DNA from: an uncultured Clostridia bacterium
GTDB taxonomy: Bacteria > Bacillota > Clostridia > UBA1212 > UBA1255
DNA length: 64,000 bases
NCBI GenBank assembly: GCA_947625435.1
Contig: CANQOI010000003.1
Span: forward strand, 1,591-65,590
Direction: 5' to 3'
The notes beneath the pieces were generated by a model. The model was not told where the DNA came from and did not search any database. It saw only the letters and a list, made by a program, of their open reading frames with translations. The position numbers and the translations under genes were made by a program. Below are positions 4,226-53,944 of the stretch, in pieces. The first letter of the stretch is position 1. The number at the start of each line of letters is the position of its first letter.

Positions 4226-4975
4226 TTACTCGTGCATGCCGTTTTTACGCAGCATATCCAGCACTCTGTCGGGAACGTTCGTTATTATTCCGGTTACGCC
4301 GAGCTCCATCGCGCGCTCTATGTCCTGCGGTGCGTCGACTGTCCACACGTTCACGTCTATACCGTTTTCACGGCACTTGTCCACTATTTCTTTATCCATG
4401 CAGTTTATCTCGGGATGTATGATATCCGCCTTATAGCTCCTGACAAATGCCACTGTCTCGTCCGGCGTCATTTTATGCCCGTACAGGAGCGCCGTCCTGA
4501 GATCGGGATGTGCTTCTTTGAGTTCTTTAAGCGACTTGTGGTCAAAGCTCGATATTATGGTGCGCTCCACACATGAATGTTTCACAAGTGAGTCGTACAG
4601 ATGATCAAACGCGAACGGCCTGTCGTCTTTCGGCATGAGCGGCTTTAATTCTATGTTTATCACACGCATGCCGTCCACTATATCGAGGAATTCTTCCAAT
4701 GTGGCTATGTGTGTGCCTTTGTATTTTTCGTCTGTACGTACCCCGAAGTCGTACTGCATGAGCTCTTCGTAGGTCATGTCGCATATCTCGCCCGTACCTG
4801 TCGACATTCTGTTTATATTGCCGTCGTGGCTCAGTACGTATATGTTGTCTTTTGTAAGACGTATATCGTTTTCGACACCGTCGGCTCCCATTTCAACCGC
4901 AAGTCTGAATGACGGCGCAGTGTTTTCCGGCGCGTAAGCCGAAGCGCCTCTGTGCGCCTGTACGTTTATCCTCAT
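4226..4975 (-). CDS. glycerophosphodiester phosphodiesterase (GDPD family)
   Basis: MRINVQAHRGASAYAPENTAPSFRLAVEMGADGVENDIRLTKD... is the canonical GDPD N-terminal HRG...EN...E.D motif. Confidence 0.9.
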   Translation of the reverse strand: MRINVQAHRGASAYAPENTAPSFRLAVEMGADGVENDIRLTKDNIYVLSHDGNINRMSTGTGEICDMTYEELMQYDFGVRTDEKYKGTHIATLEEFLDIVDGMRVINIELKPLMPKDDRPFAFDHLYDSLVKHSCVERTIISSFDHKSLKELKEAHPDLRTALLYGHKMTPDETVAFVRSYKADIIHPEINCMDKEIVDKCRENGIDVNVWTVDAPQDIERAMELGVTGIITNVPDRVLDMLRKNGMHE

Positions 4976-5193
4976 TTCAGCTACCTCCCGTTTAGTTCTT
5001 TTATACGGGACGAATTATAGTCTTTAATACTCATATTATCAAGATTTTTATTCCGCACCGGCGGCGGCGATAAATCAGTTATGGATTTATAAACTAAATA
5101 TTGTAAAATTTTTCTGTGATTTTGCCTTTATAATTTGACAATCCGGTTATAATATGATAGGATAGCAATGTAAAAAAGAGAGGAGATCATTAT

Positions 5194-6402
5194 ATGATCT
5201 GTCAATTTTCATTCAGGAATTTTATGTCATATAAAAATGAGGCTGTATTTGATTTCCAGGCAGCAGCTATTCCCGAGTTGTCCGACAGCGTTATTACGGG
5301 GGATAAGATGTCTGATCTTCTCCCGGCCTGCGTGATATACGGCCCAAACGGAGGCGGAAAGTCTAATCTGCTCAAGGCATTTGCCTGCCTTGTTTGTACT
5401 GTTGTAAAGCCCGTTGCAGATCTCGGAAAGACAAGGGAGGCTTTAATATTGCAGCTTGGGGCAGACTGCATTCCGTTTTTGCTCGATGACAATTCGCGGG
5501 ATGAGAGCACCATGTTCCGAGTTTATTTCCGCACTGACGGCAGCGAATACCGGTACAGCTTGGCTATAAATAAAGACGAGATAGTATCCGAATCTCTTTC
5601 ATGGAGAAATATCGGAGGGAAGAAAACAGGCGTTGTCTTTATAAGAAACTTTAGTGACATAGACCTCGGAGCCAGCATTAATAAGACAAGTGTCAACAAA
5701 CAAGTTAACCCCAAGATGCCTTATCTGTCTTTCCTTGCTATCAATTATGATTTTCCGGTCATAGCAGAGGTAATATCATGGTTTGAATCATGTATTATTC
5801 AAAGTTATGCCAATACGCATGTCGACAGCAGGATATTCTTTACAGATGAGAGCAACAAAAAGTCGATCATCCGAGCTTTGAATGATCTGGATATTGATAT
5901 CGCCGATTACAGATTCAGTGATGACAAGAAGCAAATGTATACTGTCAGAACAGTAAATGAAAAATCATATGAACTGCCTTTCGAATACGAATCCGACGGC
6001 ACAAGAAAGCTGCTTACAGCTCTTCCTATCATACTGATCGCACTTCGTTACGGAAGATTTGTTGTTATAGATGAGCTGGATGCCAAACTTCATCCGAAGC
6101 TCCTTCGTTATATAATCAAGCTCTTTCACAACCCCGAGATCAATAAAAACGGAGCCCAGTTGCTTTACACCTCTCACGATCTGACTACCATGAAGAATGA
6201 TCTGTTCCGCAGAGATGAGATATGGTTTGCATGTGAAAATGATTCTCATGAGAGTGAAATATATTCATTATATGATATTCGCGACGAAAATGACAAACAC
6301 GTCAATAATACCGCCGCATACGATAAGCAGTATATAGAAGGAAGATACGGCGCCGATCCTTACCTGCAGAATATTTTAGGAGGCGAATGGAATGAGTCTT
6401 AA
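5194..6402 (+). CDS. ABC/AAA_21-type P-loop ATPase (AbiLi / AriA-like defence ATPase candidate)
   Basis: Walker A GPNGGGKS (5341-5364), ESDGTRKLL signature-like motif, Walker B FVVIDELDAKLHP (6058-6096), C-terminal RYGADPY. Strong SD agaggag lies before the ATG. AT-rich relative to the flanks. Confidence 0.8.
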   Translation: MICQFSFRNFMSYKNEAVFDFQAAAIPELSDSVITGDKMSDLLPACVIYGPNGGGKSNLLKAFACLVCTVVKPVADLGKTREALILQLGADCIPFLLDDNSRDESTMFRVYFRTDGSEYRYSLAINKDEIVSESLSWRNIGGKKTGVVFIRNFSDIDLGASINKTSVNKQVNPKMPYLSFLAINYDFPVIAEVISWFESCIIQSYANTHVDSRIFFTDESNKKSIIRALNDLDIDIADYRFSDDKKQMYTVRTVNEKSYELPFEYESDGTRKLLTALPIILIALRYGRFVVIDELDAKLHPKLLRYIIKLFHNPEINKNGAQLLYTSHDLTTMKNDLFRRDEIWFACENDSHESEIYSLYDIRDENDKHVNNTAAYDKQYIEGRYGADPYLQNILGGEWNES

Positions 6403-7069
6403 GCCGACTAAAAAAACGGATCTTGGCAAGGACTGGCTTAAAGGCCGTGAGGCGCGGTCAACAAGAGTAAGACTCAATCCCGAATATCATCTTATTGTCA
6501 CTGAAGGAATTGATACAGAGCCGAGATATTTTGAAGCTATAAAAAACGAGATAAATAAGAATTTCAAAGACCGTATCAGCTTCGAAATAATCGGTACGGG
6601 AGATAATACAATCAGTCTTTTCAAAAAAGCTAAGTCCATCGTTGACAAAAGTCCCAATGGATTCAAGCACGTTTGGATCGTATACGATACCGACGACTTT
6701 CCACGGGAAAACATAAATCAAACTTTTGAGTTATGTAAGTCAAGCTCCACCGACGAAACAAAGTATCATGCTTTATGGTCTAATCAATGTATTGAACTCT
6801 GGTTCCTGCTTCACTTTGCCTACTATCATTCGGACATACACAGAACTGAGTATTGGCCGAAATTGACTGAACACCTAAAAAAAATCAATGCCGGAGAGTA
6901 TACAAAGGATCGCGATGATATGTATCTGATTTTGAAGCCGTTTGTTGATACTGCAATAAAAAATGCAAAAAAACTTGCATTTAGAAATCAAGGAAAAACA
7001 CCGGCAGAATCAGCCCCAGGCACTGAGGTATATCAGATCATTGAGATGCTTAAACCGTTTCTAAACTAA
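6392..7069 (+). CDS. RloB-like (TOPRIM-related) protein, AbiLii-like
   Basis: LIVTEGIDTEPRYF (6491-6532), WIVYDTDDF (6674-6700) and SNQCIELWFLLHF match RloB family motifs as I remember them. The start overlaps the ATPase stop by 11 nt. Confidence 0.75.
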   Translation: MSLKPTKKTDLGKDWLKGREARSTRVRLNPEYHLIVTEGIDTEPRYFEAIKNEINKNFKDRISFEIIGTGDNTISLFKKAKSIVDKSPNGFKHVWIVYDTDDFPRENINQTFELCKSSSTDETKYHALWSNQCIELWFLLHFAYYHSDIHRTEYWPKLTEHLKKINAGEYTKDRDDMYLILKPFVDTAIKNAKKLAFRNQGKTPAESAPGTEVYQIIEMLKPFLN

Positions 7070-7087
7070 ATGGATAGGAGATCACAC

Positions 7088-7267
7088 ATGAATGTAACCT
7101 TTGTAAATCCCGGAGTGGATTATATGATTTCGCGGATCATGGAGTCCCAATCCGAAGGTGAGTCCGCATTTTGGTCAGACCCTTTATTTCATTTCTTTCC
7201 TAAACTCGACAAAGCCCATGTCGACAGTCTTCCTTTTTCAACGATCTGCTGTGTAATGTCACTATGA
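7088..7267 (+). CDS. small ORF (59 aa), probably the N-terminal part of a frameshifted gene
   Basis: ATG 7088 lies 7 nt after AGGAG. The stop overlaps the next ATG (ATGA at 7264-7267). The frame of the next ORF is already open from 7204. Confidence 0.4.
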   Translation: MNVTFVNPGVDYMISRIMESQSEGESAFWSDPLFHFFPKLDKAHVDSLPFSTICCVMSL

Positions 7268-7662
7268 ATCCGATCGAACCGCGTTTTCTCAAGGAGCATC
7301 GCTTTGATGTTTTTTATCTGAACAGCGAAAAAGGAGCTATCGGTGAAAGTATACATGAAATCGTGCACTTTATGTGGTTTTATGTATGGAATCAGTTGTT
7401 CGGTGACGATTACGATGAGTACGAGCGACCCTCGCTTAACCGGCTCAGTTCAATCAATCCTTACTTTCCCGGAGAAAACGGAGGATGTATATATCCCTGT
7501 TTCTTTGATATGAAGGTGAACGGTGTGCTGATACCGGATACGCTCAATACCATGTATAAGTCTCAGAGTATTGAAAATTTCATGCGCAACAGTTTTGCTT
7601 ATTGCAAGGAACACGAGACTGAAATCAGAGAGCACATGATCAAATCAAACGGAGCGGTATGA
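7264..7662 (+). CDS. hypothetical protein with an HExxH motif (IHEIVHFMWF)
   Basis: 132-aa ORF in the operon. HEIVH is encoded near 7350-7365. It is followed by a strong terminator. No family recognised. Confidence 0.5.
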   Translation: MNPIEPRFLKEHRFDVFYLNSEKGAIGESIHEIVHFMWFYVWNQLFGDDYDEYERPSLNRLSSINPYFPGENGGCIYPCFFDMKVNGVLIPDTLNTMYKSQSIENFMRNSFAYCKEHETEIREHMIKSNGAV

Positions 7663-7674
7663 TAAATTCCCGTT

Positions 7675-7708
7675 AAGGAACGGCATGACCGAGATCATGC
7701 CGTTCCTT
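7675..7708. terminator. bidirectional rho-independent terminator (14-bp stem)
   Basis: aaggaacggcatga / ccgaga / tcatgccgttcctt, followed by a T-rich tract on the plus strand. It sits between the 7264-7662 ORF and the nifJ stop (7737). Confidence 0.8.
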
Positions 7709-7736: not shown

Positions 7737-10700
7737 TTACGCCTCGTACAGATCTCTCAGCTTGAGCAGATGCTCATACTTAGCCTTGGCGGCATCAGCA
7801 GCCTTGGCAAAGAGCTCCTCTGCCCTCTCCGGGAACGCCTGCTTCAGGCGGCTGTAACGCGTTTCACTCTGTATGAAGTCGATATAGCTCTCCGTAGGAG
7901 CCTTGCAATCGATCGTAAGAGGATTCTTGCCCTCAGCCTTGAGCGCAGGGTTGAAACGGAATGTCTGCCAATATCCGGCGGCAACAGCCTTCTTCATCTC
8001 GGACTGGCAGTTCGTCATGCCGCCCTTGACACCGTGCATTTCACAGGGAGCATATCCTATCACAATGGAAGGACCGTGATAAGCCTCCGCCTCCGTAAGA
8101 GCCTTTATAGTCTGGTTCATATCTGCGCCCATTGCTATCTGAGCCACATAAACGTAACCGTAGGACATGGCGATCTCGGCAAGGTTCTTCTTGCCTATGG
8201 ACTTGCCTGCCGCGGCAAACTGAGCTACCTGACCTATCTGGCTCGCCTTGGACGCCTGTCCGCCGGTATTGGAGTAAACCTCTGTATCAAATACCATCAC
8301 GTTTACATCCTCTCCCGAAGCCAGAACATGGTCGAGTCCGCCGAAGCCTATATCATATGCCCATCCGTCGCCGCCGAATATCCATACGGACTTCTTGGCA
8401 AGATATTCCTTGCTCGCAAGTATCGTCTTGCGCTCCTCACAGTCGCAGTCAAGTGTTTCGAGCTTTGCTATAAGCTTTGCGGCAGGCTCTGCATTCGCCT
8501 TGCCGTCATCCTTTGTATCAAGGAATGCGGTGCAGAGAGCCTTCACTTCATCATCGGAAGTCTTGTCGGCAATACGCTCAACACATGCTATGAGCCTGTC
8601 TCTTATGGCCTTCTGACCTAAGAATATTCCGAGTCCGTGCTCCGCATTGTCCTCAAAGAGGCTGTTGCCCCATGCCGGTCCGCGGCCTGAGTCACGGTTT
8701 ACAGTATAAGGTGTGGCAGGCGCCGAGCCGCCCCATATGGAAGAGCATCCGGTAGCATTTGAAATATACATGCGCTCGCCGAAGAGCTGTGTTATAAGTC
8801 TTGCATATGATGTCTCCGCACAGCCTGCGCAGGAGCCTGAGAATTCAAGCAGCGGCTGGTTGAACTGGCTGCCCTTTACCGAGAAATCGCTGAAGGATGT
8901 GGGCTTCTTCGTGACCGTAGCCACAGTATAATCGAATGCCGCCTGCTGATCCTTCTGAGATTCCTGAGATACCATGCGAAGAGCCTTTTCCTTGGCGGGG
9001 CACACATTTACGCACAGTCCGCATCCCATACAGTCAAGCGGGCTTATCGAAACCGTGAATGTGTATTCCTCGCAGCCCTTGCCCTTCATCTGTACCTTCT
9101 TTGTAGATGCCGGAGCACCGGCTGCCTCCTCCGCGTTCATGACGAACGGACGGATCGTGGCATGCGGGCATACGAAGGAGCACTGGTTACACTGTATACA
9201 ATTCTCGGGTATCCACTCAGGAACGTCCACGGCAACTCCGCGCTTTTCAAATGCGGCGGAGCCCTGCGGGAACGTACCGTCAGCTCTGTCCTTAAATACC
9301 GATACGGGCAGAGAATCGCCCTGCATCATGCCCACGGGCTGAAGTATCTCTTTCACAAATCTGGCAAGCTCCGGAGACTTACTGTTGACATCGCGCTCCT
9401 CTTTTACAACGGGAAGCGTCTTCCATGACTCGGGAACGTCGATCTTAACTATCGCGTCAACGCCCGCGTCTATCGCCTTATAGTTCATTTCAACTACGGC
9501 TTCGCCCTTCTTCATATATGACTTCTTGGCTGCCGCCTTCATATATTCGACCGCCGTATCTATCGGTAAAATGTTAGCGAGCGCGAAGAATGCGGACTGG
9601 AGTATAGTATTCGTCCTCTTGCCCATTCCTATCTCTCTCGCCTTGTCGATAGCATTTACTATATAGAACTTAATGTCGTTTTCCGCGATATATCTCTTGA
9701 CCTCTGCCGGCAGGTGCTTTTCAAGCTCCTCCGGAGTCCACTGACAGTTAAGGAGGAACGTACCGCCCGGCTTAACATCATTTACTATCTTATATCCCTT
9801 GAGCATGTATGACGGATTGTGGCATGCAACGAAGTCGGCCTTTGTTATATAGTACGACGACTTTATGGGCTTATCTCCGAAGCGCAGGTGCGATATAGTA
9901 ACGCCGCCCGTCTTCTTTGAGTCATACTGGAAGTATGCCTGTATGAATTTGTCCGTATGGTCGCCTATTATCTTTATCGAATTCTTGTTCGCGCCCACCG
10001 TTCCGTCTCCGCCGAGACCCCAGAACTTGCAGCTTATTGTGCCTGCGGGAGCCGTATCCGGAGCGGGCTTCTCCGCAAGGGAGTGATGCGTGACATCGTC
10101 CACTATTCCTATGGTGAAATTTCCCTTAGGCTCGTCGGCCTTGAGATTCTCATATACGGCAAATATGCTCGGCGGAGGCGTATCCTTGGAGCCGAGTCCG
10201 TAGCGTCCGCCTACTACCTTGGCATTTACGCCCTTGGAAGCAAGAGCGGCGGCAACATCGAGATAAAGAGGCTCGCCCAAGGAGCCGGGCTCCTTCGTCC
10301 TGTCGAGCACTGCTATCTTCTTAGCTGTTGAAGGTATAGCCTCTATGAGCTTCTCTGCGCTGAAGGGTCTGTAAAGTCTTACCTTAACAAGACCTACCTT
10401 CTCGCCGCGGGCATTCATATAATCTATTACTTCCTCAGCCACATCGCAAATAGAGCCCATGGCAACTATGACCCTGTCGGCATCGGGAGCGCCGTAATAG
10501 TTGAACAGCTTATAATTCGTTCCTATCCTGGCATTTACCTGATTCATATAATCCTCGACCACAGCGGGAAGTGCCTCATAATAGCTGTTGCACGCCTCTC
10601 TGTGCTGGAAGAATATATCTCCGTTCTCTGCGCTGCCTCTTAATACAGGATGCTCGGGATTGAGAGCTCTCTTTCTGAACTCCGCAAGAGCGTCCCTGTC

Positions 10701-15117: not shown

Positions 15118-15615
15118 CTACGAGCATATCAGGCCGGCAGCGACCGCCGATACTAAATTTGCCGTGAGCGCAGCCGGCAGAACCCCCGGCATTTTACGTA
15201 TGCCGGAGCTTCCCGCATACACAGTCATAGTGTAAAATATCGTTTCAGTCGAGCCCATCATGACACATGCCGCCCGCGCCGCCGGTGAGTCCGCGCCGCA
15301 TTTTACGATTATATCTCTCAGCGTGGCAAGCGAAGCGCTTCCCGATACGGGTCTTATCATTATAAGCGGTAAAATATCGGCGCTCGCCCCTATTTTCTCC
15401 ATTATCGGTCTGAAAAGCTCCACTATTATGTCAAGTGCGCCCGACGCTCTGAAAACGCCGATCGCTACTATGAGCCCTATCAGCGACGGTACCAGACGCA
15501 CTATCGTCATTGCTCCGTTTTGAGCGCCTTTTACAAAACTGTCAAAGCACGGCACACCCTTTATAAATCCCACTGTGATTATGATCAGTAAAAATACCGG
15601 TATGATATATATCAT
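15118..15615 (-). CDS. spmB: spore maturation protein B
   Basis: MIYIIPVFLLIIITVGFIKGV...IMIRPVSGSASLA. The ATG at 15615 shares one nt with the spmA stop (TAATG). Confidence 0.85.
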   Translation of the reverse strand: MIYIIPVFLLIIITVGFIKGVPCFDSFVKGAQNGAMTIVRLVPSLIGLIVAIGVFRASGALDIIVELFRPIMEKIGASADILPLIMIRPVSGSASLATLRDIIVKCGADSPAARAACVMMGSTETIFYTMTVYAGSSGIRKMPGVLPAALTANLVSAVAAGLICS

Positions 15616-16217
15616 TATTGTCCTTCCTTTGCCTTTCGTTTCATTCTGACTGCGCGCATGCAGTAATATGCTCTTCTGTATACGCTGTATATTATAAGTG
15701 CGGACAAAAGCGATATGCCCGATACTATCCATGTGGGTACAAGTATGTCCGACGGATCCGAAGCTCCCAGTTCCGAGCGCATTGCTATCACTGTTGAGGG
15801 TATGAGCTGTATTCCGGCTGAGTTTATGACAAGGAACAGACATATATCCTTTATACTGTTATTCATTTCACGTACAGCCTCTATACCGGACGGCGTGGCT
15901 CCGTTTCCGAGGCCGAGAAAGTTAGCTGATATGTTGGTTATTATCGCCGATTGTGCTTTTTCGTTATTTTTTGTGCCCGGAAACAGCTTTGTTATAACGG
16001 GCTTTAATATTTTAGATGTGACTTTAAGTACTCCCGCGTCTTCCAATATCTGTATCAGACCGCACCAGAGTGCCACTGCTCCTATAAGCCCGAAAGCGAA
16101 TTTGACGGCCTCATCGGCGGAAGTCATGATACTCGCCGCGACCGAATGTATGCGCCCGGTAAAAATACCTGTTATCAATCCTGCTATAAGCAGTGCTGCC
16201 CATATGATATTAAGCAT
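15615..16217 (-). CDS. spmA: spore maturation protein A
   Basis: MLNIIWAALLIAGLITGIFTG...ISANFLGLGNGATP. Start moved to ATG 16217, behind GGAGGAGG. Confidence 0.85.
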   Translation of the reverse strand: MLNIIWAALLIAGLITGIFTGRIHSVAASIMTSADEAVKFAFGLIGAVALWCGLIQILEDAGVLKVTSKILKPVITKLFPGTKNNEKAQSAIITNISANFLGLGNGATPSGIEAVREMNNSIKDICLFLVINSAGIQLIPSTVIAMRSELGASDPSDILVPTWIVSGISLLSALIIYSVYRRAYYCMRAVRMKRKAKEGQ

Positions 16218-16309
16218 GATGCATCCTCCTCCGTACGTATCTGTAAAATTATATGAAGTTGTACCTTGCAGTATGTTCATGCATTTGTCGGGAAATATTT
16301 CCCAAACAT

Positions 16310-16338
16310 TTGACATATCTACATTTTTTATGTATTAT
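16310..16338 (+). promoter_or_regulatory. sigma-A type promoter of abrB
   Basis: TTGACA (16310-16315), 17-nt spacer, TATTAT (16333-16338), with TG directly upstream. Confidence 0.6.
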
Positions 16339-16387
16339 ATATTCGCATTCAATCGAATGATACTTATATATAAAGGAGATAATACGT

Positions 16388-16645
16388 ATGAGATCTACAG
16401 GAATAGTTAGAAAGGTCGACGAATTAGGAAGAATCGTACTTCCGATAGAACTTAGAAGAGTTTTGAATATTTCATACAAAGATTCTCTTGAAATATTCAC
16501 TGACAACAACATGGTAATTCTGAGAAAATATGAACCGTGCTGCATTTTCTGCGGCAGCGCAACGAACGTCGTTACATATAAAGGCAAAAACATATGCCCC
16601 GAATGCATATCCCGTATGCATGATGACATAAAGATCGCTCAATAG
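16388..16645 (+). CDS. abrB: AbrB-family transition-state regulator with a C-terminal Cys4 element
   Basis: MRSTGIVRKVDELGRIVLPIELRRVLNI is a SpoVT/AbrB swapped-hairpin domain. The C-terminus reads CCIFCG...CPEC. Confidence 0.9.
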   Translation: MRSTGIVRKVDELGRIVLPIELRRVLNISYKDSLEIFTDNNMVILRKYEPCCIFCGSATNVVTYKGKNICPECISRMHDDIKIAQ

Positions 16646-16693
16646 TATGTCACACATGCATATATATTAATCTTCCTCGCTTTAGTTAAGTTT

Positions 16694-16722
16694 AATGCCG
16701 CTTTACTGTCCAAAGCGGCATT
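16694..16722 (+). terminator. terminator after abrB
   Basis: aatgccgcttt / actgtcc / aaagcggcatt (11-bp stem), then aaacattttt. Confidence 0.6.
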
Positions 16723-16755
16723 AAACATTTTTCTATCATTGTGAATCATAAATGT

Positions 16756-16814
16756 AAAACAAAACCGCCGCATTTCAAAGCCATACTGTTACATACAGCA
16801 TCTGAAATGCAGCG
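16756..16814 (-). terminator. rho-independent terminator after tuf
   Basis: Minus strand reads ccgctgcatttca...tgaaatgcggcgg, followed by ttttgttt. Confidence 0.65.
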
Positions 16815-16845
16815 GGATTTATTCAGGTCTTATACGATTCCTGTA

Positions 16846-18054
16846 TTATTCTATGATCTTTGTAACCGTACCTGAACCGACAGTTCTGCCGCCTTCACGA
16901 ATAGCGAAACGGAGTCCTTCTTCCATAGCGATAGGAGTAATAAGCTGAACATCCATATCGATGTGGTCGCCCGGCATTACCATTTCCGTTCCCTCAGGAA
17001 GCGTTATAACGCCTGTAACGTCCGTTGTTCTGAAATAGAACTGAGGTCTGTAATTGCTGAAGAAAGGTGAGTGACGTCCGCCCTCTTCCTTTGTCAGTAC
17101 GTAAACCTGACCCTTGAAGTGCGTATGCGGATGGATCGTTCCGGGTTTAACAAGAACCTGTCCTCTTTCCACTTCGTTTCTCTGGATACCTCTGAGAAGC
17201 ACGCCGATGTTGTCGCCTGCTTCTGCCTGATCGAGCTGCTTTCTGAACATCTCAACACCGGTAACAACCGTGCTCTTCTTCTCGTCGCTGAGGCCAACGA
17301 TCTCAGCAGGATCTCCTACCTTTATAACGCCTCTCTCAAGACGACCCGTAGCAACGGTACCGCGTCCTGTGATCGTGAATACGTCTTCAACAGGCATAAG
17401 GAAGGGCTTGTCGATCGGTCTCTCAGGTGTAGGAATGTAACTGTCAACCGCTTCCATAAGCTCATGTATGCACTTATATTCAGGTGCATTAACATCTGTT
17501 GATGTAGATTCAAGAGCTTTAAGAGCAGAACCTCTTATGATCGGGATCTCATCTCCGGGGAATTCATATGAGCTGAGCAGCTCTCTGATCTCCATCTCGG
17601 CAAGGTCAAGTATCTCTTCGTCGCCTTCATCTATCATATCGCACTTGTTCATGAAAACTACGATATAGTGAACGCCAACCTGACGTGCGAGAAGTATATG
17701 CTCTCTTGTCTGAGCCTGCGGGCCGTCAGGACCGGAAACCAGAAGGATAGCACCGTCCATCTGAGCGGCACCGGTGATCATGTTCTTAACATAGTCGGCA
17801 TGTCCGGGGCAGTCAACGTGAGCATAGTGTCTGTTAGCTGTCTGATACTCAACGTGAGCTGTATTGATCGTGATTCCTCTTGCTTTCTCCTCCGGAGCGC
17901 CGTCGATTTCATCGTATGCCTTTACCTCTGCATCACCTGTAAGAGCAAGTACTTTCGTGATCGCAGCTGTAAGAGTTGTCTTACCGTGGTCAACGTGACC
18001 AATGGTACCGATATTTACGTGTGGTTTTGTTCTTACGAACTTAGCTTTTGCCAT
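16846..18054 (-). CDS. tuf: elongation factor Tu
   Basis: [33 protein letters not shown]... Full-length EF-Tu. Confidence 0.99.
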
Positions 18055-18114
18055 TTTAAAATCCTCCTTAACTTAGATATCATAACGAATTAAATGAAAA
18101 CGTATACTTGCACT

Positions 18115-18143
18115 ATATTACACTTTTCACCGTTATTTTGCAA
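18115..18143 (-). promoter_or_regulatory. internal promoter for tuf in the fusA-tuf spacer
   Basis: Minus strand reads TTGCAA (18143-18138), 17-nt spacer, TAATAT (18120-18115), preceded by TG. Confidence 0.5.
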
Positions 18144-18168
18144 GTATATTTTTGTCATGCAACTTTGT

Positions 18169-20253
18169 TTATGCGTTTTGGGCATTTCTCTGTTTTATGA
18201 CAGCATCCTGTACACTCTTCGGAACTTCCTCGTAGTGACTCGGCTCCATTATAAACGAACCTCTTCCCTGTGTTATGGATCGGAGTGTCGTCGTGTATCC
18301 GAACATCTCGGCCAGAGGACAGAAAGCAGATATCACCTTATTTCCCGCAACATCATCCATGCCCTCTATCTTGCCTCTCTTTGAACTGATAGAGCCTATT
18401 ATGTCTCCGAGATATTCCTCGGGAACATTCACGCTGACTTTCATGATAGGTTCGAGCAGCACGGGATCTGCCTTGCGGCATGCATCCTTTATTGCCATCG
18501 AGCCTGCTATCTTGAACGCCATCTCGGAAGAGTCGACCTCGTGATAAGAACCGTCAACAAGTGTAACTTTAACGTCAACAACAGGATATCCGCCGAGCAC
18601 GCCTGTCTGAAGTGCATCCTGAATGCCCTGATCAACAGGTCCGATATACTCCTTGGGGATCACGCCGCCGACGATCTTGTTGACGAACTCATATCCTTTA
18701 CCTCTCTCAAGCGGCTCTACCTCGATCACGCAGTGACCGTACTGGCCGCGTCCGCCCGACTGACGCACGAACTTTCCTTCCTGACGTACAGCCTTACGTA
18801 TGCCTTCTTTATACGCAACCTGCGGATTACCTACATTAGCCTCGACCTTGAACTCACGCAGGAGTCTGTCTACTATGATTTCAAGATGGAGCTCGCCCAT
18901 TCCCGAAATAATGGTCTGTCCGGTCTCAGAATCAGTATGAACTCTGAATGTAGGATCTTCTTCGGCAAGCTTCTGAAGAGCTATGCTCATCTTCTCCTGA
19001 CCTGCTTTTGTCTTAGGTTCAACGGCTACCGAAATAACGGGATCCGGAAATTCCATTTTTTCAAGAACGATCGGATTCGTTTCATCGCAAAGCGTGTCGC
19101 CCGTCGTAGTATCCTTAAGTCCCACGGCAGCGGCTATATCACCCGCATATACACAGTTGATCTCTTCTCTGTGATTCGCGTGCATCTGAACTATACGTCC
19201 GATCCTCTCCTTCTTACCCTTTGTTGCATTATAAACATATGAACCTGCTTCAAGCGTTCCCGAATACACACGGAAGAAGCAAAGCTTTCCGACAAAAGGA
19301 TCGGTCACAATCTTGAACGCAAGCGCGGAAAACGGCTCACTGTCGCTGGAGTGTCTGAAGGATTCCTCTTCTTCTCCGGGAACGACGCCTTTGATCGAAG
19401 GAATATCAGTCGGCGCCGGCATAAAGTCTACGATCGCATCGAGGAGCTGCTGCACTCCCTTATTTCTGTAAGACGATCCGCAGAGTATGGGTATCATCTT
19501 AACCGATATCGTAGCCTTTCTGATGGCTCTCTTAAGCTCTTCTACAGTGATCTCCTCTCCTTCAAGATATTTCGCCATTACGTCATCGTCCTGATCCGCA
19601 ACAGCCTCGAGAAGCTTATCCCTGTATTCGGCAGCAAGATCGGCCATATCATCGGGTATAGGCTCGATCTCCACTTTTGTTCCGAGTTCATCTTTATAAA
19701 CGTGAGCATCCATGTTTATAAGATCCACAATTCCTACAAACGAATCCTCTTTGCCTATAGGGAGCTGTATCGGAACGGCGTTTGCGCCGAGGCGAGTGCG
19801 TATCATATCAACGCAACGGTAAAAATCCGCACCCATGATATCCATTTTGTTTACATAGCCCATACGGGGAACACCATATTTATCCGCCTGTCTCCAAACT
19901 GTCTCCGACTGCGGTTCAACGCCTCCTTTGGCGCAGAACAGCGTAACACTTCCGTCAAGGACTCTCAGAGAGCGTTCAACTTCAACGGTAAAATCCACAT
20001 GTCCGGGAGTATCGATTATATTTATTCTCGTATTCTTCCACTGAGCCGTCGTGGCAGCGGAAGTGATCGTAATACCTCTCTCCTGCTCCTGTACCATATA
20101 GTCCATTGTAGCCGCGCCATCGTGTACCTCGCCGATCTTATGAGTACGTCCCGTGTAGAAAAGTATTCTTTCCGTCGTTGTCGTCTTACCGGCGTCTATA
20201 TGAGCCATAATTCCTATATTTCTGGTATTCTCCAAACTAAACTTTCTAGGCAT
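18169..20253 (-). CDS. fusA: elongation factor G
   Basis: [24 protein letters not shown]... 694 aa. Confidence 0.99.
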
Positions 20254-43569: not shown

Positions 43570-44453
43570 TTTTCCGCCTCCGCCGCTTGTCCGCATGCGG
43601 TTCCTTTATCGATCACGCGCAGCACCTCGCACGCCGCTTCTTCCACTGTAAGTATGTCCCTGCGTATGCCTGCTTCGGGGAAACGTTCCGCAAGGCGGCT
43701 GAATACATCTGTCATCAGAGGTACATCAAGACATATTTCTCTGAGCCTTTTCACATTTTTGAATATTTCACGCGGCGTCCCCGTCATTTCGACGCCTCCG
43801 TCATTCATGACTATTATATTATCCGCAAGCTCCGCTATATCCTCCATGCTGTGTGACACAAGTATCACCGTCACTCCGTTTTTATCGCACAGATCTTTTG
43901 TGAGCTTCAATATCTCCTTCCTTCCCTCCGGATCAAGACCGGCGGCCGGTTCGTCGAGCACAAGTATGTCGGGATTCATTACCGTTATTCCCGCTATTGC
44001 CACGCGCCTTTTCTGTCCTCCCGAGAGCTCGTAAACAGATCTGTCAAGCGTATCATGCGTAAGTCCCGTTTTTCGTGCCGCATCTTCTACGCGCCTGCGT
44101 TCCTCTTCTTCGGTAAGCTTTTCGCCCCTCAGCCCGAAGGCTATATCACGGTAAACGGTTGATTCAAACAGCTGATATTCGGGATACTGGAAAACGAGTC
44201 CTACCTTTTTTCTCATTTCCTTCACATCGCTGCCTTCGGTAAGCTTCCCGTTTATATATATCTTGCCGCTGTCAGGGCGCAGAAGTCCGTTAAAATGCTG
44301 TATAAGTGTCGATTTGCCGCATCCCGTATGACCTATAATTCCCGTAAAAGTTCCCGCCTCTATCTGAAAGCTCACGTTATCCAGGGCTTTTTTCTCAAAC
44401 GGCGTTTTTTTCATATATGTGTATGATATGTTCTCAACCTTAAGTGCAGTCAT
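43566..44453 (-). CDS. ecfA2: ECF transporter ATPase A2
   Basis: GHTGCGKSTL (Walker A), LSGGQKRRVAIAG, ILVLDEP. Start placed at ATG 44453 (GAGGTG 6 nt upstream). Confidence 0.9.
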   Translation of the reverse strand: MTALKVENISYTYMKKTPFEKKALDNVSFQIEAGTFTGIIGHTGCGKSTLIQHFNGLLRPDSGKIYINGKLTEGSDVKEMRKKVGLVFQYPEYQLFESTVYRDIAFGLRGEKLTEEEERRRVEDAARKTGLTHDTLDRSVYELSGGQKRRVAIAGITVMNPDILVLDEPAAGLDPEGRKEILKLTKDLCDKNGVTVILVSHSMEDIAELADNIIVMNDGGVEMTGTPREIFKNVKRLREICLDVPLMTDVFSRLAERFPEAGIRRDILTVEEAACEVLRVIDKGTACGQAAEAEK

Positions 44454-44463
44454 ACGCATCACC

Positions 44464-45339
44464 TCACGCAAAGCTTTCCCCGGTAAAATGCAAGTCAGAC
44501 AGCAGTTCCGACAATGCTTCGAAGCATTCATCGCCGGTCAATACCGTGCCGCGTACAGGAACACCCTTATCTCTTAATACCTCTGCCAGCTCCGCTGCCT
44601 TAGGCAATTCAAGACCGGCTTCTTCCACAAGCCTTCTGTTCCTGAAAAGCTCTGACGGAGCCGTATCGGCAATGATTTTACCGCTTTCGATCAATATGAC
44701 CCTGTCTGCGCAGCATACCTCTTCCATATGGTGTGTTATATCGACTATCGTTATGCCGTTTTCTTTATTGAGTCTGTGCGCGAGCTCCATGACCTCTCTG
44801 CGCCCGGACGGATCCAGCATGGCCGTAGCTTCGTCAAATACGATACACTCCGGCCGCATGGCAGTTATTCCGGCTATCGCGCATCTTTGTTTCTGCCCTC
44901 CTGACAGTAAATGAGGCTGCGTACTTCTTTCTTTTTCAAGCCTCACAGTCAGAAGCGCTCTGTCAATTCTCTCATGCATTTCATCACGCGAAAGTCCGAT
45001 ATTCTCAAGTCCGAATGCTATATCATCTTCTACTGTGGCTCCTACGATCTGACTGTCCGGATTCTGGAATACCATGCCTACCGTTCTTCTTATATCCCAC
45101 ACTTCAGATTCATCCGATGTATCTTTGCCGTTTACATATACTTTACCGTATGTGGGTATAAGAAGTGCATTCATCAGTTTCGCGAGAGTGGATTTACCGG
45201 AACCGTTTCTTCCTGCTATCGCCGTGAATTCACCTTTTTTTATTGTTAAATCCGCGTTTTCTATTGCATATTTTATATTATCCGCGTCACTCGTATAGCT
45301 GTACGAAACATTTTCAAATCTGATAAAATCATCCGTCAT
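44464..45339 (-). CDS. ecfA1: ECF transporter ATPase A1
   Basis: GRNGSGKSTL, LSGGQKQRCAIAG, IVFDEAT. First gene after rplQ, as in other Firmicutes. Confidence 0.9.
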   Translation of the reverse strand: MTDDFIRFENVSYSYTSDADNIKYAIENADLTIKKGEFTAIAGRNGSGKSTLAKLMNALLIPTYGKVYVNGKDTSDESEVWDIRRTVGMVFQNPDSQIVGATVEDDIAFGLENIGLSRDEMHERIDRALLTVRLEKERSTQPHLLSGGQKQRCAIAGITAMRPECIVFDEATAMLDPSGRREVMELAHRLNKENGITIVDITHHMEEVCCADRVILIESGKIIADTAPSELFRNRRLVEEAGLELPKAAELAEVLRDKGVPVRGTVLTGDECFEALSELLSDLHFTGESFA

Positions 45340-45374
45340 TGCCGTGCTTACCCCAAAAATATTTATGTGCCTTG

Positions 45375-45412
45375 TCAAAAGCGGGAACCATCAGTAAAGA
45401 CGGTCCCCGCTT
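45375..45412 (-). terminator. terminator/attenuator hairpin after rplQ
   Basis: Minus strand reads aagcggggacc...ggttcccgctt (one mismatch), followed by tttt. Confidence 0.5.
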
Positions 45413-45463
45413 TAAAATCTCTTAATATTTACCTGCTCACATCATATGCATCATGCAATATGG

Positions 45464-45988
45464 TCATACAAGCTCGATTATGGCCATCGGCGCAGCATCG
45501 CCGCGTCTTGCACCGGTCTTGTATATACGTGTATAACCGCCCTTGCGTTCCTTATATTTCGGAGCTATCTCATCAAAGAGTTTGTTGACAACGTTTACAT
45601 TATTGCCTTCGACATCTTTTACTTTATACACCCACTCGATCACCTGTTTTCTGGCAGCAAGTCTCGACGGATTATCTATACGCACAAGCTCCGTCTTGAT
45701 CTCACGGTCAGCAAACTTTGTATATTTCTTACCGTTTTTGGATGTAACGACTGTCGTATTTCGCTTACCCTTTGAATCTGTAGGTACCTTACTGACTTTA
45801 GCCTGCTTCGTTGTGAAATTATCGGCTTCACGCACAGCTTTGGCTATTATTCTTTCTGCAATACTCTGCACTTCTTTTGCTCTTGTCTCCGTTGTTACAA
45901 CAGAGCCGTTCTGCAAAAGTGCCGTAACAAGACCTCTGAGCATTGCCTTTCTTTGGTCCGATGTCCGGCCAAGCTTTCTATATGCCAT
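45464..45988 (-). CDS. rplQ: 50S ribosomal protein L17 (long form, about 55-aa internal insertion)
   Basis: [20 protein letters not shown]...[25 protein letters not shown]. Confidence 0.97.
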
Positions 45989-46030
45989 TTCAATTATCCT
46001 CCTGTCTAATACTGTTATCGCGTATGAACA

Positions 46031-46990
46031 TCATACATCATCTTTTTTGAGAGAGAGTCCCAGTGATTCCAGCTTTTGAATTACCTCTTCAAGAGACTTT
46101 CTTCCGAGATTCCGAACCTTCATCATTTCTTCTTCCGTCTTGTCTGCAAGGTCGCCTACTGTATTTACCGCAGCACGCTTAAGACAATTGTAAGAACGCA
46201 CTGAAAGATCCAGATCTTCAATATTCATCTCCAATACTTTTTCGGTCTTACAAGGATTGTCCTTCTCGATAACAACCGGCTTTTCTTCTTCCTCTTCATC
46301 AAGATTCAGGAAGAGAGAGAAATGATCTATCAATATTTTTGCACTCTCACTGATAGCCTCTTTAGGAGTCAGCGCACCGTTTGTCCAGACCTCGATCGTG
46401 AGCTTGTCATAGTCCGTAACATTGCCGACACGCGTATTCTCCACCTGATAATTCGCCTTTTTTATAGGTGAGAAAAGCGAATCTACGGGAATTACGCTGA
46501 AAGGCATATTCGGGGTTTTATTCTTGTCTGCAGATCTCCATCCTCTTGACGTGCCGACTTCGATCTCAACGGAAAATTCAGCATCGCCGTTAAGCGTCGC
46601 TATATGCTGTTCCGGATTCAGAACCTCTATATCGGAATCGCATATAATATCGGCAGCTGTAACCTCACCTTTGTCCGATTTGTTTATCATCACGACTTTA
46701 GTCACATCCGGGTCGTCATCATAAATCTTAAATGCAACAGACTTTATATTTAATATAATCTCCGTAACATCTTCTACGACACCGGGTATTGCAGTAAATT
46801 CATGACACGCGCCCTTAACTTTAATACTGGTAGCGGCCGAACCGGGCAAAGACGAAAGAAGAATTCTCCTGAGTGAATTTCCTAACGTAGTTCCGTATCC
46901 TCTTTCAAGGGGTTCTATGACGAATTTTCCGTATCTTTCGGATTCGTCTGTTTCCACGCATTCTATCCTCGGCTTTTCAATTTCAATCAC
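46031..46990 (-). CDS. rpoA: RNA polymerase alpha subunit
   Basis: [31 protein letters not shown]...[12 protein letters not shown]. Confidence 0.98.
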
Positions 46991-47028
46991 GGTAATCCCT
47001 CCTTAGACTTCCGATACACTCAACGAAA

Positions 47029-47661
47029 TTACTTACTGTACAACTCAACGATCAAGTGCTCCTGTATCGGCAGATCAATGTCTTCACGTTTCGGAATCGC
47101 AAGCACTGTGCCTTCCATCGTCTCTTCATTTAACGAAAGCCACTCCGGTCTTGTACGTCCTCCCGTTACCTCAAGTATCTGTCCTATTCTTTCATTCGAC
47201 CTGCTCTTCTGGCATACAGCGATCACGTCATTTGCGGATACGAGATAGGACGGAATATTAACCCGCTTTCCGTTTACCGTAAAATGTCCGTGCAATACCA
47301 GCTGTCTCGCTTCGGCTCTCGATGTTCCGAGTCCGAGGCGGTATGCCACATTGTCAAGTCTTCTTTCAAGAAGAGTAAGCAGATTTTCACCCGTAACGCC
47401 CTTCTTTTTATTGGCAAGCTCATAATATGTGTGGAACTGCTTTTCAAGCAGACCGTAATATCTCTTTACCTTTTGCTTTTCTCTGAGCTGCAAACAATAC
47501 TCAGACTGTTTCTTCCTTCCCTGTCCGTGCTGTCCGGGAGCATACGCTCTCTTGGGCTTAGACACGGGGCATTTTTCTGTATAACACTTTGTGCCTTTGA
47601 GAAAAAGCTTTTCACCCTCTCTTCTGCAAAGTCTGCACGATGCGTCATTATATCTCGCCAT
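47029..47661 (-). CDS. rpsD: 30S ribosomal protein S4
   Basis: [23 protein letters not shown].. ATG 47661 lies behind GGAGGTG. Confidence 0.97.
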
Positions 47662-47678
47662 CTGATTACACCTCCGAA

Positions 47679-48077
47679 TTAAACTCTTCTTCTCTTGGGC
47701 GGCCTGCATCCGTTGTGCGGTATCGGGGTCTCGTCCTTAATGAGAGTAACGTCAAGTCCTGCAACCTGCAGTGCTCGTATAGCTGACTCTCTACCTGCTC
47801 CGGGACCTCTTACATATACTTCAACAGATTTAAGTCCGTGTTCCATCGCTGCCTTTGCTGCAGTCTCTGCGGCTGACTGTGCCGCAAACGGCGTACTCTT
47901 TTTTGAACCTCTGAATCCGAGTCCGCCCGCACTTGCCCATGAGATCGCGTTTCCGGATTTATCTGTTATTGTTACGATCGTATTATTAAAAGTGGAACGA
48001 ATATGTGCCTGACCGTATTCAATGTATTTACGTTCTTTTCTCTTACCTTTGACAGTCCTTTTGGTCTTAACAGCCAT
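47679..48077 (-). CDS. rpsK: 30S ribosomal protein S11
   Basis: [18 protein letters not shown]...[14 protein letters not shown]. Confidence 0.97.
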
Positions 48078-48089
48078 AATCAAACCTCC

Positions 48090-48458
48090 TTATTTCTTCT
48101 TGCCTGCTACAGTTTTGCTCGGGCCTTTTCTCGTACGGGCATTGGTCTTAGTCCTCTGTCCTCTTACCGGAAGTCCCATCTTATGGCGTCTGCCCCTGTA
48201 GCAGCCAATTTCCATCAGACGTTTGATATTGAGTGAAACCTCTCTGCGTACGTCTCCCTCAACTACATATTCTCTGTCTATTATATCTCTCAACTTTCCG
48301 ACCTCGTCGTCAGTCAGATCTCTGACTCTTGTATCCGGATTGATACCGGTTTTGGAAAGTATCTCATTTGATTTTGATCTGCCTATACCGTAAATGTATG
48401 TCAGTCCGATCTCTACACGTTTTTCTCTCGGCAAGTCCACACCTGCAATTCGAGCCAT
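48090..48458 (-). CDS. rpsM: 30S ribosomal protein S13
   Basis: [26 protein letters not shown]. Confidence 0.97.
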
Positions 48459-48607
48459 TCGCAAAAACACCTCCGTAAAATGTTCATTCTAATTTTTGCT
48501 TTATAGTAAATAAAATATATATCAACATTCCGAAGCTCATGTTATACATGCAGCCGCACTCCGAAACGATAATGATCTATGCTTCTCAAAGAGAAGCAGT
48601 ACAACAC

Positions 48608-48724
48608 TTATCCTTGCTTTTGCTTGTGCTTCGGATAAGCATCACATATAACCATCACTTTACCTTTTCTCTTTATAACCTTGCATTTATCGCATATCGG
48701 CTTTACTGACGGTCTTACTTTCAT
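48608..48724 (-). CDS. rpmJ: 50S ribosomal protein L36
   Basis: Too short for the ORF track. Own translation: [43 protein letters not shown] lies 8 nt upstream. Confidence 0.95.
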
Positions 48725-48738
48725 GGCACAAACCTCCT

Positions 48739-48954
48739 TCACTTTCTCCATACGATCCGACCGCGATCGAGATCATACGGTGACAATTCCAGGGTGACAT
48801 GGTCACCCTTAACTATCTTGATATAATTAGTCCTGAGCTTACCGGATATATGAGCGATCACTATATGTCCGTTGGCAAGCTCAACCTTAAAAACACAGTT
48901 CGGAAGCACTTCGGCTATAACGCCTTCAACTTCAATCAGGTCTTCTTTAGACAA
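48739..48954 (-). CDS. infA: translation initiation factor IF-1
   Basis: [30 protein letters not shown]... Confidence 0.97.
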
Positions 48955-48974
48955 GCTTTCATCCTCCCTAAATC

Positions 48975-49736: not shown

Positions 49737-49742
49737 AACAAA

Positions 49743-50390: not shown

Positions 50391-50410
50391 CATAACCTCC
50401 GACAGACCGA

Positions 50411-51742: not shown

Positions 51743-51743
51743 C

Positions 51744-53282: not shown

Positions 53283-53300
53283 ATTGCGTCACTCCCTTTC

Positions 53301-53852: not shown

Positions 53853-53944
53853 TTTACTATTTCCTCCAATCTTAAAATTCTGTACTGCCTCTCATATCCG
53901 GCAATACTTTTCAGATCATTTATATATTTCTGTTGGCATACCGA

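What the first reader, a model, noticed from the sequence alone, without database searches (positions are those of the whole stretch)
5194..7708. AT-rich operon inserted between core genes: ABC-type ATPase + RloB/TOPRIM-like protein + an extra HExxH module (candidate antiphage system)
The ORFs are packed as one transcription unit. A strong SD precedes 5194, the 6392 start overlaps the 6402 stop by 11 nt, 7069 is followed by 7088, ATGA overlaps at 7264-7267, and a 14-bp-stem terminator sits at 7675-7708. Gene 1 has Walker A GPNGGGKS (5341-5364) and Walker B FVVIDELD (6058-6096). Gene 2 has LIVTEGIDTEPRYF (6491-6532) and WIVYDTDDF (6674-6700), motifs I associate with the RloB family. A separate ATPase plus TOPRIM-like partner is the architecture of lactococcal AbiL (AbiLi/AbiLii) and, more distantly, PARIS (AriA/AriB) and OLD/Gabija nucleases. 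Composition is foreign. Hand counts of 60-nt lines give 23/60 (5221-5280) and 21/60 (6541-6600) G+C inside, against 34/60 (4261-4320, GDPD) and 39/60 (7801-7860, nifJ) outside. No integrase or transposase accompanies it. The downstream module (7088-7662) is not part of any described AbiL/PARIS system that I know.
Basis: partly seen in the sequence, partly recalled or inferred. Interest (0 to 1): 0.8.

Follow-up and report, generated by a model that had tools for sequence, protein, structure and literature searches.

The report
AbiL defence pair plus dead neighbour gene
This is an ordinary two-gene AbiL-type (ATPase plus RloB nuclease-like) anti-phage cassette that landed between housekeeping genes of a gut Clostridia bacterium, and the "extra HExxH module" behind it is the broken remnant of an unrelated gene, not a third component.

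Summary
Genes 1 and 2 form a typical AbiL/RloAB-type pair. Gene 1 matches Pfam AAA_21 (2.6e-29) and PADLOC AbiLi (1.5e-79). Gene 2 matches Pfam RloB (3.7e-40) and PADLOC AbiLii (5.9e-27). Walker motifs and the conserved acidic residues are intact. The pair carries its own promoter, which is conserved in related cassettes. It lies in the lowest-G+C 2.5 kb of the 64-kb window, between GDPD and pyruvate:ferredoxin oxidoreductase.

The closest relatives (68-79% identity) are two-gene cassettes on mobile elements: inside a conjugation gene cluster, next to serine recombinases, and in an island of mostly uncharacterised genes. None has a third gene.

The "HExxH module" (7088-7662) is a pseudogene of a conserved ~260-aa lone-gene family with a zincin-like fold and no Pfam family. 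The window copy has a 166-nt frameshifting deletion and a 45-nt in-frame deletion, and so lacks 70 of 260 residues. In 11 distinct contexts from other organisms (seven different kinds of neighbourhood) the intact gene never sits beside AbiL. The three-component reading is therefore not supported.

Verdict: a new member of a known kind, of low interest. The one side observation worth a look is the lone-gene family itself, which behaves like a mobile, AT-rich, single-gene unit.

The parts
5086..5193 (+). Leader of the AbiL cassette. It holds a promoter-like site (-35 TTGACA at 5135-5140, 17-nt spacer, TG-extended -10 TAGGAT at 5158-5163) and the SD GAGAGGAG 8 nt before the start codon.
   Evidence: The promoter scan gives 10 of 12 matches with TG. 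The same -35, spacer and TG-extended -10 layout, plus about 50 nt of upstream sequence, aligns with the cassettes in L100, L101 and L104, whose homology to the window begins near 5086.
5194..6402 (+). abiLi-like gene: a 402-aa ABC/SMC-type ATPase (RloA-like). Walker A G50-S57, Walker B F289-D296, TSHD at 326.
   Evidence: Pfam AAA_21 2.6e-29, covering profile positions 3-302 of 304. PADLOC AbiLi PDLC02335 1.5e-79 and AriA 1.8e-34. Motifs confirmed. Full-length 72-79% identity to the ATPases of other cassettes.
6392..7069 (+). abiLii-like gene: a 225-aa RloB-family protein, the putative TOPRIM-like effector nuclease. It overlaps gene 1 by 11 nt.
7073..7678 (+). Pseudogene remnant of a ~260-aa lone HExxH (zincin-like) gene. 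It comprises residual ORFs 7088-7267 and 7264-7662, the HEIVH motif at 7354-7368, a 166-nt frameshifting deletion with its junction within 7232-7240, and a 45-nt in-frame deletion with its junction at 7437/7438.
   Evidence: The concatenated ORFs hit 586 proteins of about 259-261 aa. The DNA alignment with intact copies maps both deletions. The deleted parts include invariant residues K173-M185. Homology with L113 spans 7073-7678. Three independent contigs carry the same broken structure.
7675..7708 (.). Perfect 14-bp hairpin between the convergent cassette and the PFOR gene. It is a probable bidirectional terminator.
   Evidence: Inverted repeat I2 is 100% complementary. Fold energy -25.1 kcal/mol, z -5.5.

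Best explanation
**What it is.** Window 5086-7069 is a self-contained AbiL/RloAB-type two-gene defence cassette with its own promoter, an ABC-type ATPase gene and an overlapping RloB-family gene. It was acquired horizontally and now lies between core genes (GDPD and pyruvate:ferredoxin oxidoreductase) of an uncultured spore-forming gut Clostridia bacterium.

**How it probably works (inferred).** By analogy with PARIS and with the toxin-antitoxin behaviour reported for AAA/TOPRIM_OLD pairs, the ATPase oligomer holds the RloB nuclease-like effector inactive and acts as the infection sensor. A phage trigger would release or activate the effector, which would then cut nucleic acid and abort the infection. 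This mechanism is not shown here.

**The downstream stretch.** Window 7073-7678 is not part of the system. It is the dead remnant of a separate, AT-rich, ~260-aa zincin-like lone gene. The AbiL cassette's 3' end is joined about 18 nt before that gene's start codon. The remnant is probably just transcribed as a 3' tail of the operon, up to the hairpin at 7675-7708.
For: **Family assignment.**
- Gene 1 matches AAA_21 (2.6e-29) and PADLOC AbiLi (1.5e-79). Gene 2 matches RloB (3.7e-40) and PADLOC AbiLii (5.9e-27).
- Both genes are full length relative to 68-79% identical homologues.
- Walker A and B and the TOPRIM-type acidic residues E38, D99xD101 and E135 are conserved.
- The promoter layout is conserved among cassettes.

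**Horizontal origin.**
- The cassette lies in the lowest-G+C stretch of the window.
- The closest cassettes sit inside a T4SS/conjugation cluster (L104), beside serine recombinases (L100) and in an island of mostly uncharacterised genes (L101). All are two-gene units.
- More distant pairs occur on 179 plasmid records and in prophages, including a lactococcal prophage pair annotated as abortive phage resistance proteins.

**Pseudogene.**
- Homologues are 259-261 aa and cover both residual ORFs.
- Two deletions, of 166 nt and 45 nt, were mapped. They remove invariant residues.
- The same broken structure appears in three separate assemblies.
- AbiL and this family do not co-occur anywhere else that was examined.

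**Mechanistic analogy from the literature.** Sources are PMC11464382 (the ATPase tree groups AbiL with ATPase plus TOPRIM systems), PMC10440598 (AAA antitoxins paired with TOPRIM_OLD toxins) and PMC13064643 (AbiLii predicted to be OLD/TOPRIM-like; mode of action still open).
Against: - No phenotype, transcript or biochemical data exist for this locus or for any close relative.
- The mode of action of AbiL itself is unknown (PMC13064643).
- No sequence-level match to any solved structure was found.
- An empty site in a close relative could not be found, so insertion is inferred from composition and from the mobile contexts of relatives.
- The order of events cannot be decided. Either AbiL inserted next to a resident lone gene, or both arrived together.
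Confidence: 0.85

Rival explanations
1. This is the first reader's model: a three-part system in which the HExxH ORFs (7088-7267 and 7264-7662) are a functional accessory, such as a protease-like sensor or regulator, of the ATPase/RloB pair.
For: The ORFs are tightly packed on the same strand with no terminator between gene 2 and 7088. An SD precedes 7088. The HEIVH motif and the candidate third ligand, E168 in family numbering, are retained. The broken arrangement is stable in three assemblies.
Against: Both ORFs are fragments of one 260-aa protein, and 70 residues are missing, including invariant positions and most of the long helix 50-98. The ATGA overlap arises from the frameshift plus a conserved internal Met codon. 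No other AbiL cassette examined has this gene, and no other copy of the gene has AbiL beside it. Neither fragment has a defence-library hit, apart from a GajA match on the 65-aa ORF at E = 0.046 that is not significant.
Confidence: 0.03
2. The pair is real, but its main role is not phage defence. It could act as a toxin-antitoxin-like addiction module that stabilised the mobile element it came from. It could also be a restriction-linked RloAB-type accessory that is now orphaned.
For: Close relatives are cargo of conjugative or integrative elements. AAA plus TOPRIM_OLD pairs behave as toxin-antitoxin pairs in assays (PMC10440598). RloA and RloB were first named as genes linked to type I R-M loci (cited in PMC10440598 and PMC13064643).
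Against: No R-M genes and no mobile-element backbone are present here. The prototype AbiL gives abortive-infection phage resistance (Deng et al. 1999, as summarised in PMC13064643). TA-like behaviour and defence are not mutually exclusive.
Confidence: 0.1
3. The apparent break in the third gene is an assembly or sequencing artefact, and the organism really has an intact 260-aa gene.
For: The source is probably a metagenome-assembled genome. The supporting contigs have low coverage, about 2x by their names.
Against: The differences are clean deletions of 166 nt and 45 nt, not homopolymer errors. One is flanked by a CCTTTT(T)CAA direct repeat in intact copies, as expected for a real slippage or microhomology deletion. 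The identical structure occurs in three independently assembled samples.
Confidence: 0.02

Closest known systems
Lactococcal AbiL (AbiLi/AbiLii; Deng, Liu & Dunn 1999) and AbiL as defined by PADLOC/DefenseFinder
   Same: It has the same two adjacent co-oriented genes, an ABC-type ATPase followed by an RloB-family protein. It gives strong matches to the AbiLi and AbiLii profiles. It shares the conserved acidic residues with a lactococcal prophage Abi pair. It travels as mobile cargo.
   Different: It is only about 27-32% identical to the lactococcal prophage pair. It is chromosomal, lies between core genes and has no mobile backbone. The host is an uncultured gut Clostridia bacterium. No phenotype is known.
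Campylobacter RloA/RloB (restriction-linked ORFs) and the Pfam RloB family PF13707
   Same: Gene 2 is a full-length RloB-family member matching profile positions 2-195 of 195. Gene 1 is of the RloA-type AAA_21 class, and one plasmid homologue is annotated RloA.
   Different: It is not embedded in a type I restriction-modification locus. No hsd genes are nearby.
PARIS (AriA/AriB)
   Same: The architecture is a separate ABC ATPase plus a TOPRIM-class partner. Gene 1 also matches an AriA profile at 1.8e-34. The likely logic, a sensor ATPase restraining a nuclease effector, is borrowed from PARIS (PMC11464382).
   Different: Gene 2 has no DUF4435 or AriB match. The AbiLi profile fits far better than AriA. 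No tRNA-cleavage or Ocr-type trigger evidence exists for AbiL.
OLD-family nucleases and Gabija GajA
   Different: The domains are on two proteins rather than one. There is no GajB-like helicase. The structural similarity is weak and not discriminating.
Gluzincin (MA clan) metallopeptidases, for the intact relatives of the 7073-7678 remnant
   Different: No Pfam, NCBIfam, PHROG or PADLOC family matches. The fold score is low. The protein is small, has a single domain and has no known function. The window copy is a pseudogene.

Membership tests
AbiL (AbiLi/AbiLii) defence system | First component is an ABC/SMC-type ATPase that matches the AbiLi profile | tested here: met
   PADLOC PDLC02335 AbiLi 1.5e-79. 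Pfam AAA_21 2.6e-29 at 103.7 bits against a cut-off of 27.
AbiL (AbiLi/AbiLii) defence system | Second component is an RloB-family protein that matches the AbiLii profile | tested here: met
   Pfam RloB 3.7e-40 at 138.6 bits against a cut-off of 31.5, full profile length. PADLOC AbiLii 5.9e-27.
AbiL (AbiLi/AbiLii) defence system | The two genes are adjacent, co-oriented and form one transcription unit | tested here: met
   The genes overlap by 11 nt at 6392-6402. A single conserved promoter lies upstream. Transcription itself was not measured.
AbiL (AbiLi/AbiLii) defence system | Intact nucleotide-binding motifs in the ATPase | tested here: met
   Walker A GPNGGGKS (residues 50-57), Walker B FVVIDELD (289-296) and TSHD (326-329) are present.
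AbiL (AbiLi/AbiLii) defence system | TOPRIM-type acidic residues (Glu, then DxD) conserved in the second component | tested here: met
   E38, E43, D99, D101 and E135 are invariant in 20 sequences, including a lactococcal prophage Abi partner and a plasmid RloB. In the 35-sequence alignment of closer relatives, E43, D99, D101 and E135 are invariant and E38 is at least 90% conserved.
AbiL (AbiLi/AbiLii) defence system | TOPRIM/OLD-like fold of the second component | tested here: inconclusive
AbiL (AbiLi/AbiLii) defence system | Confers abortive-infection-type phage resistance | not testable with these tools
   This needs expression and phage challenge.
PARIS (AriA/AriB) | Effector AriB carries the DUF4435 TOPRIM domain | tested here: not met
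   Gene 2 matches only RloB in Pfam and only AbiLii in PADLOC, apart from a 0.013 hit to PDC-M12B. There is no DUF4435 or AriB hit.
OLD class 1 / Gabija | ATPase and TOPRIM on one polypeptide (with a GajB helicase partner in Gabija) | tested here: not met
   The two domains are on two separate proteins, and no helicase gene is adjacent.
Restriction-linked RloAB | Located within or beside a type I R-M (hsd) locus | tested here: not met
   The flanking genes are DpaA, DpaB, GDPD, PFOR, transketolase and RpiB.
Zincin/gluzincin metallopeptidase (for 7088-7662) | HExxH plus a downstream Glu ligand within a complete catalytic domain | tested here: not met

The most novel reading that the evidence does not exclude
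The ~260-aa HExxH lone gene, whose remnant lies behind AbiL, may itself be an undescribed mobile single-gene unit.
- It is highly conserved.
- It is 9-15 points lower in G+C than every host flank examined.
- It occupies a different housekeeping neighbourhood in each species.
- Copies of about 850 nt with 92-95% identity (within aligned blocks) and sharp boundaries sit in three unrelated contexts.

On this reading the window would record turnover at an insertion hot spot, with one accessory gene being displaced and eroded as a defence cassette arrives. The family could be a new kind of accessory function, either defence or counter-defence.
Probability: 0.12. Interest if true: 0.5.

Novelty: new member of a known kind. 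Interest (0 to 1): 0.2.

Why it matters
It adds one more AbiL/RloAB-type cassette to the catalogue, this time in an uncultured gut Clostridia genome. It also shows that such cassettes can persist as orphan, promoter-carrying two-gene units between core genes, away from the conjugative and integrative elements that carry their closest relatives.

The practical value is mostly negative. The apparent "three-component AbiL variant" is an annotation trap, created by a decayed neighbouring gene whose frameshift mimics translational coupling.

AbiL's mechanism is still unknown. Any tractable homologue could help, but this one offers nothing special. The lone zincin-like gene family is the only item here that might repay a separate study.

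Tried and rejected
1. **Family searches on the two downstream ORFs.** Pfam, NCBIfam, PHROGs and PADLOC gave nothing. Pfam at E up to 10 on intact relatives also gave nothing. One distant multidomain member has a separate Peptidase_MA_2 domain outside the matched region, so it is not informative.
2. **Presence/absence at the GDPD-PFOR junction.**
   - The genome contigs and metagenome-contig scans with GDPD found only one related species, at 74-75% identity (L018, L114, L115). It keeps dpaA-dpaB-GDPD but has different genes beyond GDPD.
   - The exact-protein look-up of GDPD returned only two short contigs of the same organism. One reaches far enough to show AbiLi adjacent.
   - No empty site was recovered.
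3. **Target-site duplication.** The 14-nt direct repeat TTT[A/C]TAAACTAAAT at 5086 and 7058 brackets the cassette. About 1.4 such pairs are expected by chance in this stretch, and both copies lie in cassette sequence that is also seen in relatives. It is not accepted as evidence.
4. **Sequence search of PDB.** Gene 1, the gene 2 profile and the 260-aa profile gave no meaningful hit.
5. **Viral structure library.** The 260-aa model found nothing. The afdb50 library was unavailable.
6. **Rfam and tRNA scans of the region.** The only result was a sub-threshold Gut-1 hit inside gene 1. No tRNA gene was found that could serve as an integration site.
7. **Sequencing-artefact explanation for the frameshift.** This was rejected.
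Full report
**Observation.**
- The ORFs are 5194-6402 (402 aa), 6392-7069 (225 aa, overlapping the first by 11 nt), 7070/7088-7267 and 7264-7662.
- The Walker A motif (GPNGGGKS, 5341-5364, K56), the Walker B motif (FVVIDELD from 6058) and the two gene 2 motifs (6491-6532 and 6674-6700) translate as stated.
- Shine-Dalgarno sequences precede 5194 and 7088.
- The arms 7675-7688 and 7695-7708 form a perfect 14-bp hairpin. It folds at -25.1 kcal/mol, z = -5.5 against shuffles.
- The hairpin has no T-run directly after the stem, so the simple terminator scan missed it.
- G+C is 0.39-0.42 inside the block and 0.50-0.53 in the flanking genes. The 2.5-kb window starting at 5001 is the lowest of the whole 64 kb, at 0.403 against a mean of 0.475 (sd 0.029).

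**The flanks.** The neighbouring genes are core metabolism and sporulation genes. They are DpaA and DpaB, a GDPD phosphodiesterase, pyruvate:ferredoxin oxidoreductase, the two transketolase halves and RpiB, and further on EF-Tu and EF-G. There is no recombinase, transposase or tRNA gene nearby.

**Genes 1 and 2.**
- Gene 1 matches Pfam AAA_21 over essentially the whole profile (2.6e-29). It matches the PADLOC AbiLi model at 1.5e-79 and an AriA model at 1.8e-34.
- Gene 2 matches Pfam RloB end to end (3.7e-40; 138.6 bits against a cut-off of 31.5) and PADLOC AbiLii at 5.9e-27. It has no DUF4435 or AriB hit.
- More than 1,300 RloB relatives were found. The best non-self hits are 81-59% identical and about the same length.
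- In an alignment that also includes a C. beijerinckii plasmid RloB and the second gene of a lactococcal prophage pair annotated "abortive phage resistance protein", E38, E43, D99, D101 and E135 are invariant. These are the Glu and DxD positions expected of a TOPRIM-type site.
- No solved structure is related at the sequence level.

**The cassette as a unit.**
- Four other distinct cassettes were retrieved through close RloB homologues: L100, L101/L102, L103 and L104. Their ATPases are 73-79% identical to gene 1 and their RloB genes 68-74% identical to gene 2.
- All are two-gene units with the same short overlap.
- L104 lies inside a conjugation cluster, between TrbL-like and PrgI/VirB4-like genes and near TraG and ArdC. 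L100 lies next to two large serine recombinases. L101 lies in an island of mostly uncharacterised genes.
- Homology between these cassettes and the window begins about 110 nt upstream of the ATPase start, near 5086. It includes a conserved -35 TTGACA, a 17-nt spacer and a TG-extended -10.
- The homology ends at the gene 2 stop codon.
- The unit therefore spans about 5086-7069 and carries its own promoter.
- More distant pairs occur on 179 plasmid records and in a few phages and prophages.

**The "extra HExxH module".**
- A search with the two downstream ORFs joined found 586 proteins, almost all 259-261 aa, that cover both ORFs in a single chain.
- The window copy therefore consists of fragments of one gene.
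- DNA alignment with intact copies (L012, L014, L113) shows a 166-nt deletion with its junction within 7232-7240. In intact copies the deleted segment is flanked by the direct repeat CCTTTT(T)CAA. Because 166 is not a multiple of three, the frame shifts.
- The apparent ATGA coupling at 7264-7267 is the new stop of the shifted frame overlapping a conserved internal Met codon.
- A second, in-frame deletion of 45 nt at 7437/7438 removes 15 residues, including the invariant K173, W174, L176, S177, E178, M179, V181, E182 and M185.
- In all, 70 of 260 residues are missing, and the first 51 are in another frame.
- The same broken structure is present in three independently assembled contigs, so it is not an assembly error.
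- This stretch is a pseudogene.

**What the intact gene is, and whether it belongs with AbiL.**
- The family has no Pfam, NCBIfam, PHROG or PADLOC model.
- It comprises 614 clusters at 50% identity.
- An AF2 model of the intact relative P0001 is confident (pLDDT 87.6, pTM 0.85).
- This agrees with the invariant H145-E146-x-x-H149 and E168, which follows the second His by 18 residues.
- Intact or near-intact members from other organisms were seen in 11 distinct contexts, covering seven different kinds of neighbourhood. The gene is alone among housekeeping genes in each case and never beside an AbiL pair.
- Conversely, none of the other AbiL cassettes has it.
- The two co-occur only in this organism. 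The three-component reading is therefore not supported.

**Junction and history.**
- The remnant's homology with other copies starts at 7073, about 15 nt before its ATG. It ends at 7678, inside the hairpin.
- The cassette's homology ends at about 7069.
- The two are therefore joined within a few bases, and the lone gene's normal 5' leader has been replaced.
- The data do not show whether AbiL inserted beside a resident lone gene or the two arrived together.
- The only related species found, at 74-75% GDPD identity, retains dpaA-dpaB-GDPD but has other genes beyond GDPD. It has no AbiL or lone gene there.
- Foreign origin therefore rests on composition and on the mobile contexts of relatives, not on an observed empty site.

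**Mechanism (inferred, not shown).**
- The literature groups AbiL with ATPase plus TOPRIM systems (PMC11464382).
- It reports AAA antitoxins paired with TOPRIM_OLD toxins, and calls AbiLii the toxic effector (PMC10440598).
- It states that the mode of action of AbiL and RloAB remains to be determined (PMC13064643).
- The most likely model is an ATPase oligomer that senses infection and restrains or licenses the RloB nuclease-like effector, leading to abortive infection.
- I give the family assignment and the pseudogene call about 0.85 confidence. I give the specific sensor-and-release mechanism about 0.5.

**Verdict.** This is a new member of a known kind, the AbiL/RloAB type, and the apparent novelty is explained by a decayed neighbouring gene. 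Interest is low. The side observation with some potential is the lone zincin-like gene family, which looks like a mobile, AT-rich, single-gene unit of unknown function.

Noticed in passing
window 7073-7678; L113:375-1220; L017:1602-2446; also L001, L012, L014, L107, L110: The ~260-aa HExxH family is a lone gene in a different housekeeping neighbourhood in each species. Its G+C is 9-15 points below its flanks (0.44 vs 0.58, 0.50 vs 0.65, 0.52 vs 0.62, 0.42 vs 0.51). Copies of about 850 nt with sharp boundaries, roughly -45 to +20 around the ORF, sit in three unrelated contexts. L113 and L017 are 94.6% identical. The window remnant is 92% identical to L113 in its 5' block and higher than the 83% gapped figure in its 3' block. 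The family behaves like a mobile single-gene unit with no obvious mobility mechanism.
   Followed up: partly
L017:1646-2427: A second copy of the lone gene, 93% identical in protein to P0001, carries a 1-nt deletion near codon 35. It was therefore called as a truncated 232-aa protein, P0103. Decay of this gene is not unique to the window.
   Followed up: no
window 5086-5099 and 7058-7071: The 14-nt direct repeat TTT[A/C]TAAACTAAAT (13 of 14 identical) brackets the AbiL cassette exactly as delimited by homology with other cassettes. About 1.4 such pairs are expected by chance in this 2.9-kb stretch, so it may mean nothing.
   Followed up: partly
window 5086-5134; L100, L101 and L104 upstream of their ATPase genes: About 50 nt upstream of the -35 is conserved among otherwise diverged AbiL cassettes. 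The motif is roughly TATAAAnnnAAnATTGTAAAAnnTTTTnnnnAAAATnGC. In L100 it contains an inverted repeat, TTGTAAA...TTACAAA. It may be an operator or UP element for autoregulation.
   Followed up: no
L104:3803-5681; L100:253-2134: A close AbiL cassette is inserted in the middle of a type IV secretion/conjugation gene cluster, between TrbL-like and PrgI/VirB4-like genes. Another lies directly upstream of two large serine recombinases. AbiL thus travels as cargo of conjugative or integrative elements in gut Clostridia.
   Followed up: partly
window 6213-6283 (+): A sub-threshold Rfam match to Gut-1 RNA (27.4 bits against a gathering score of 50; E 0.026) lies inside the ATPase coding sequence. It is most likely chance.
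   Followed up: no
window about 15600-18500, 44300-47700, 47800-52100 and 53100-55600: Other stretches with 2.5-kb G+C below 0.44 exist in the window, though none is as low as 5001-7500. Their content was not examined, apart from a nucleoside-recognition 'Gate' membrane protein at 15118-15843.
   Followed up: no
L018 (reverse complement) 9250-10098: In the nearest relative, a 282-aa ORF lies between dpaB and GDPD and overlaps the 3' end of the GDPD ORF, where the window has only a 126-nt spacer. Synteny beyond GDPD is lost there, with no PFOR. This neighbourhood is rearrangement-prone.
   Followed up: no
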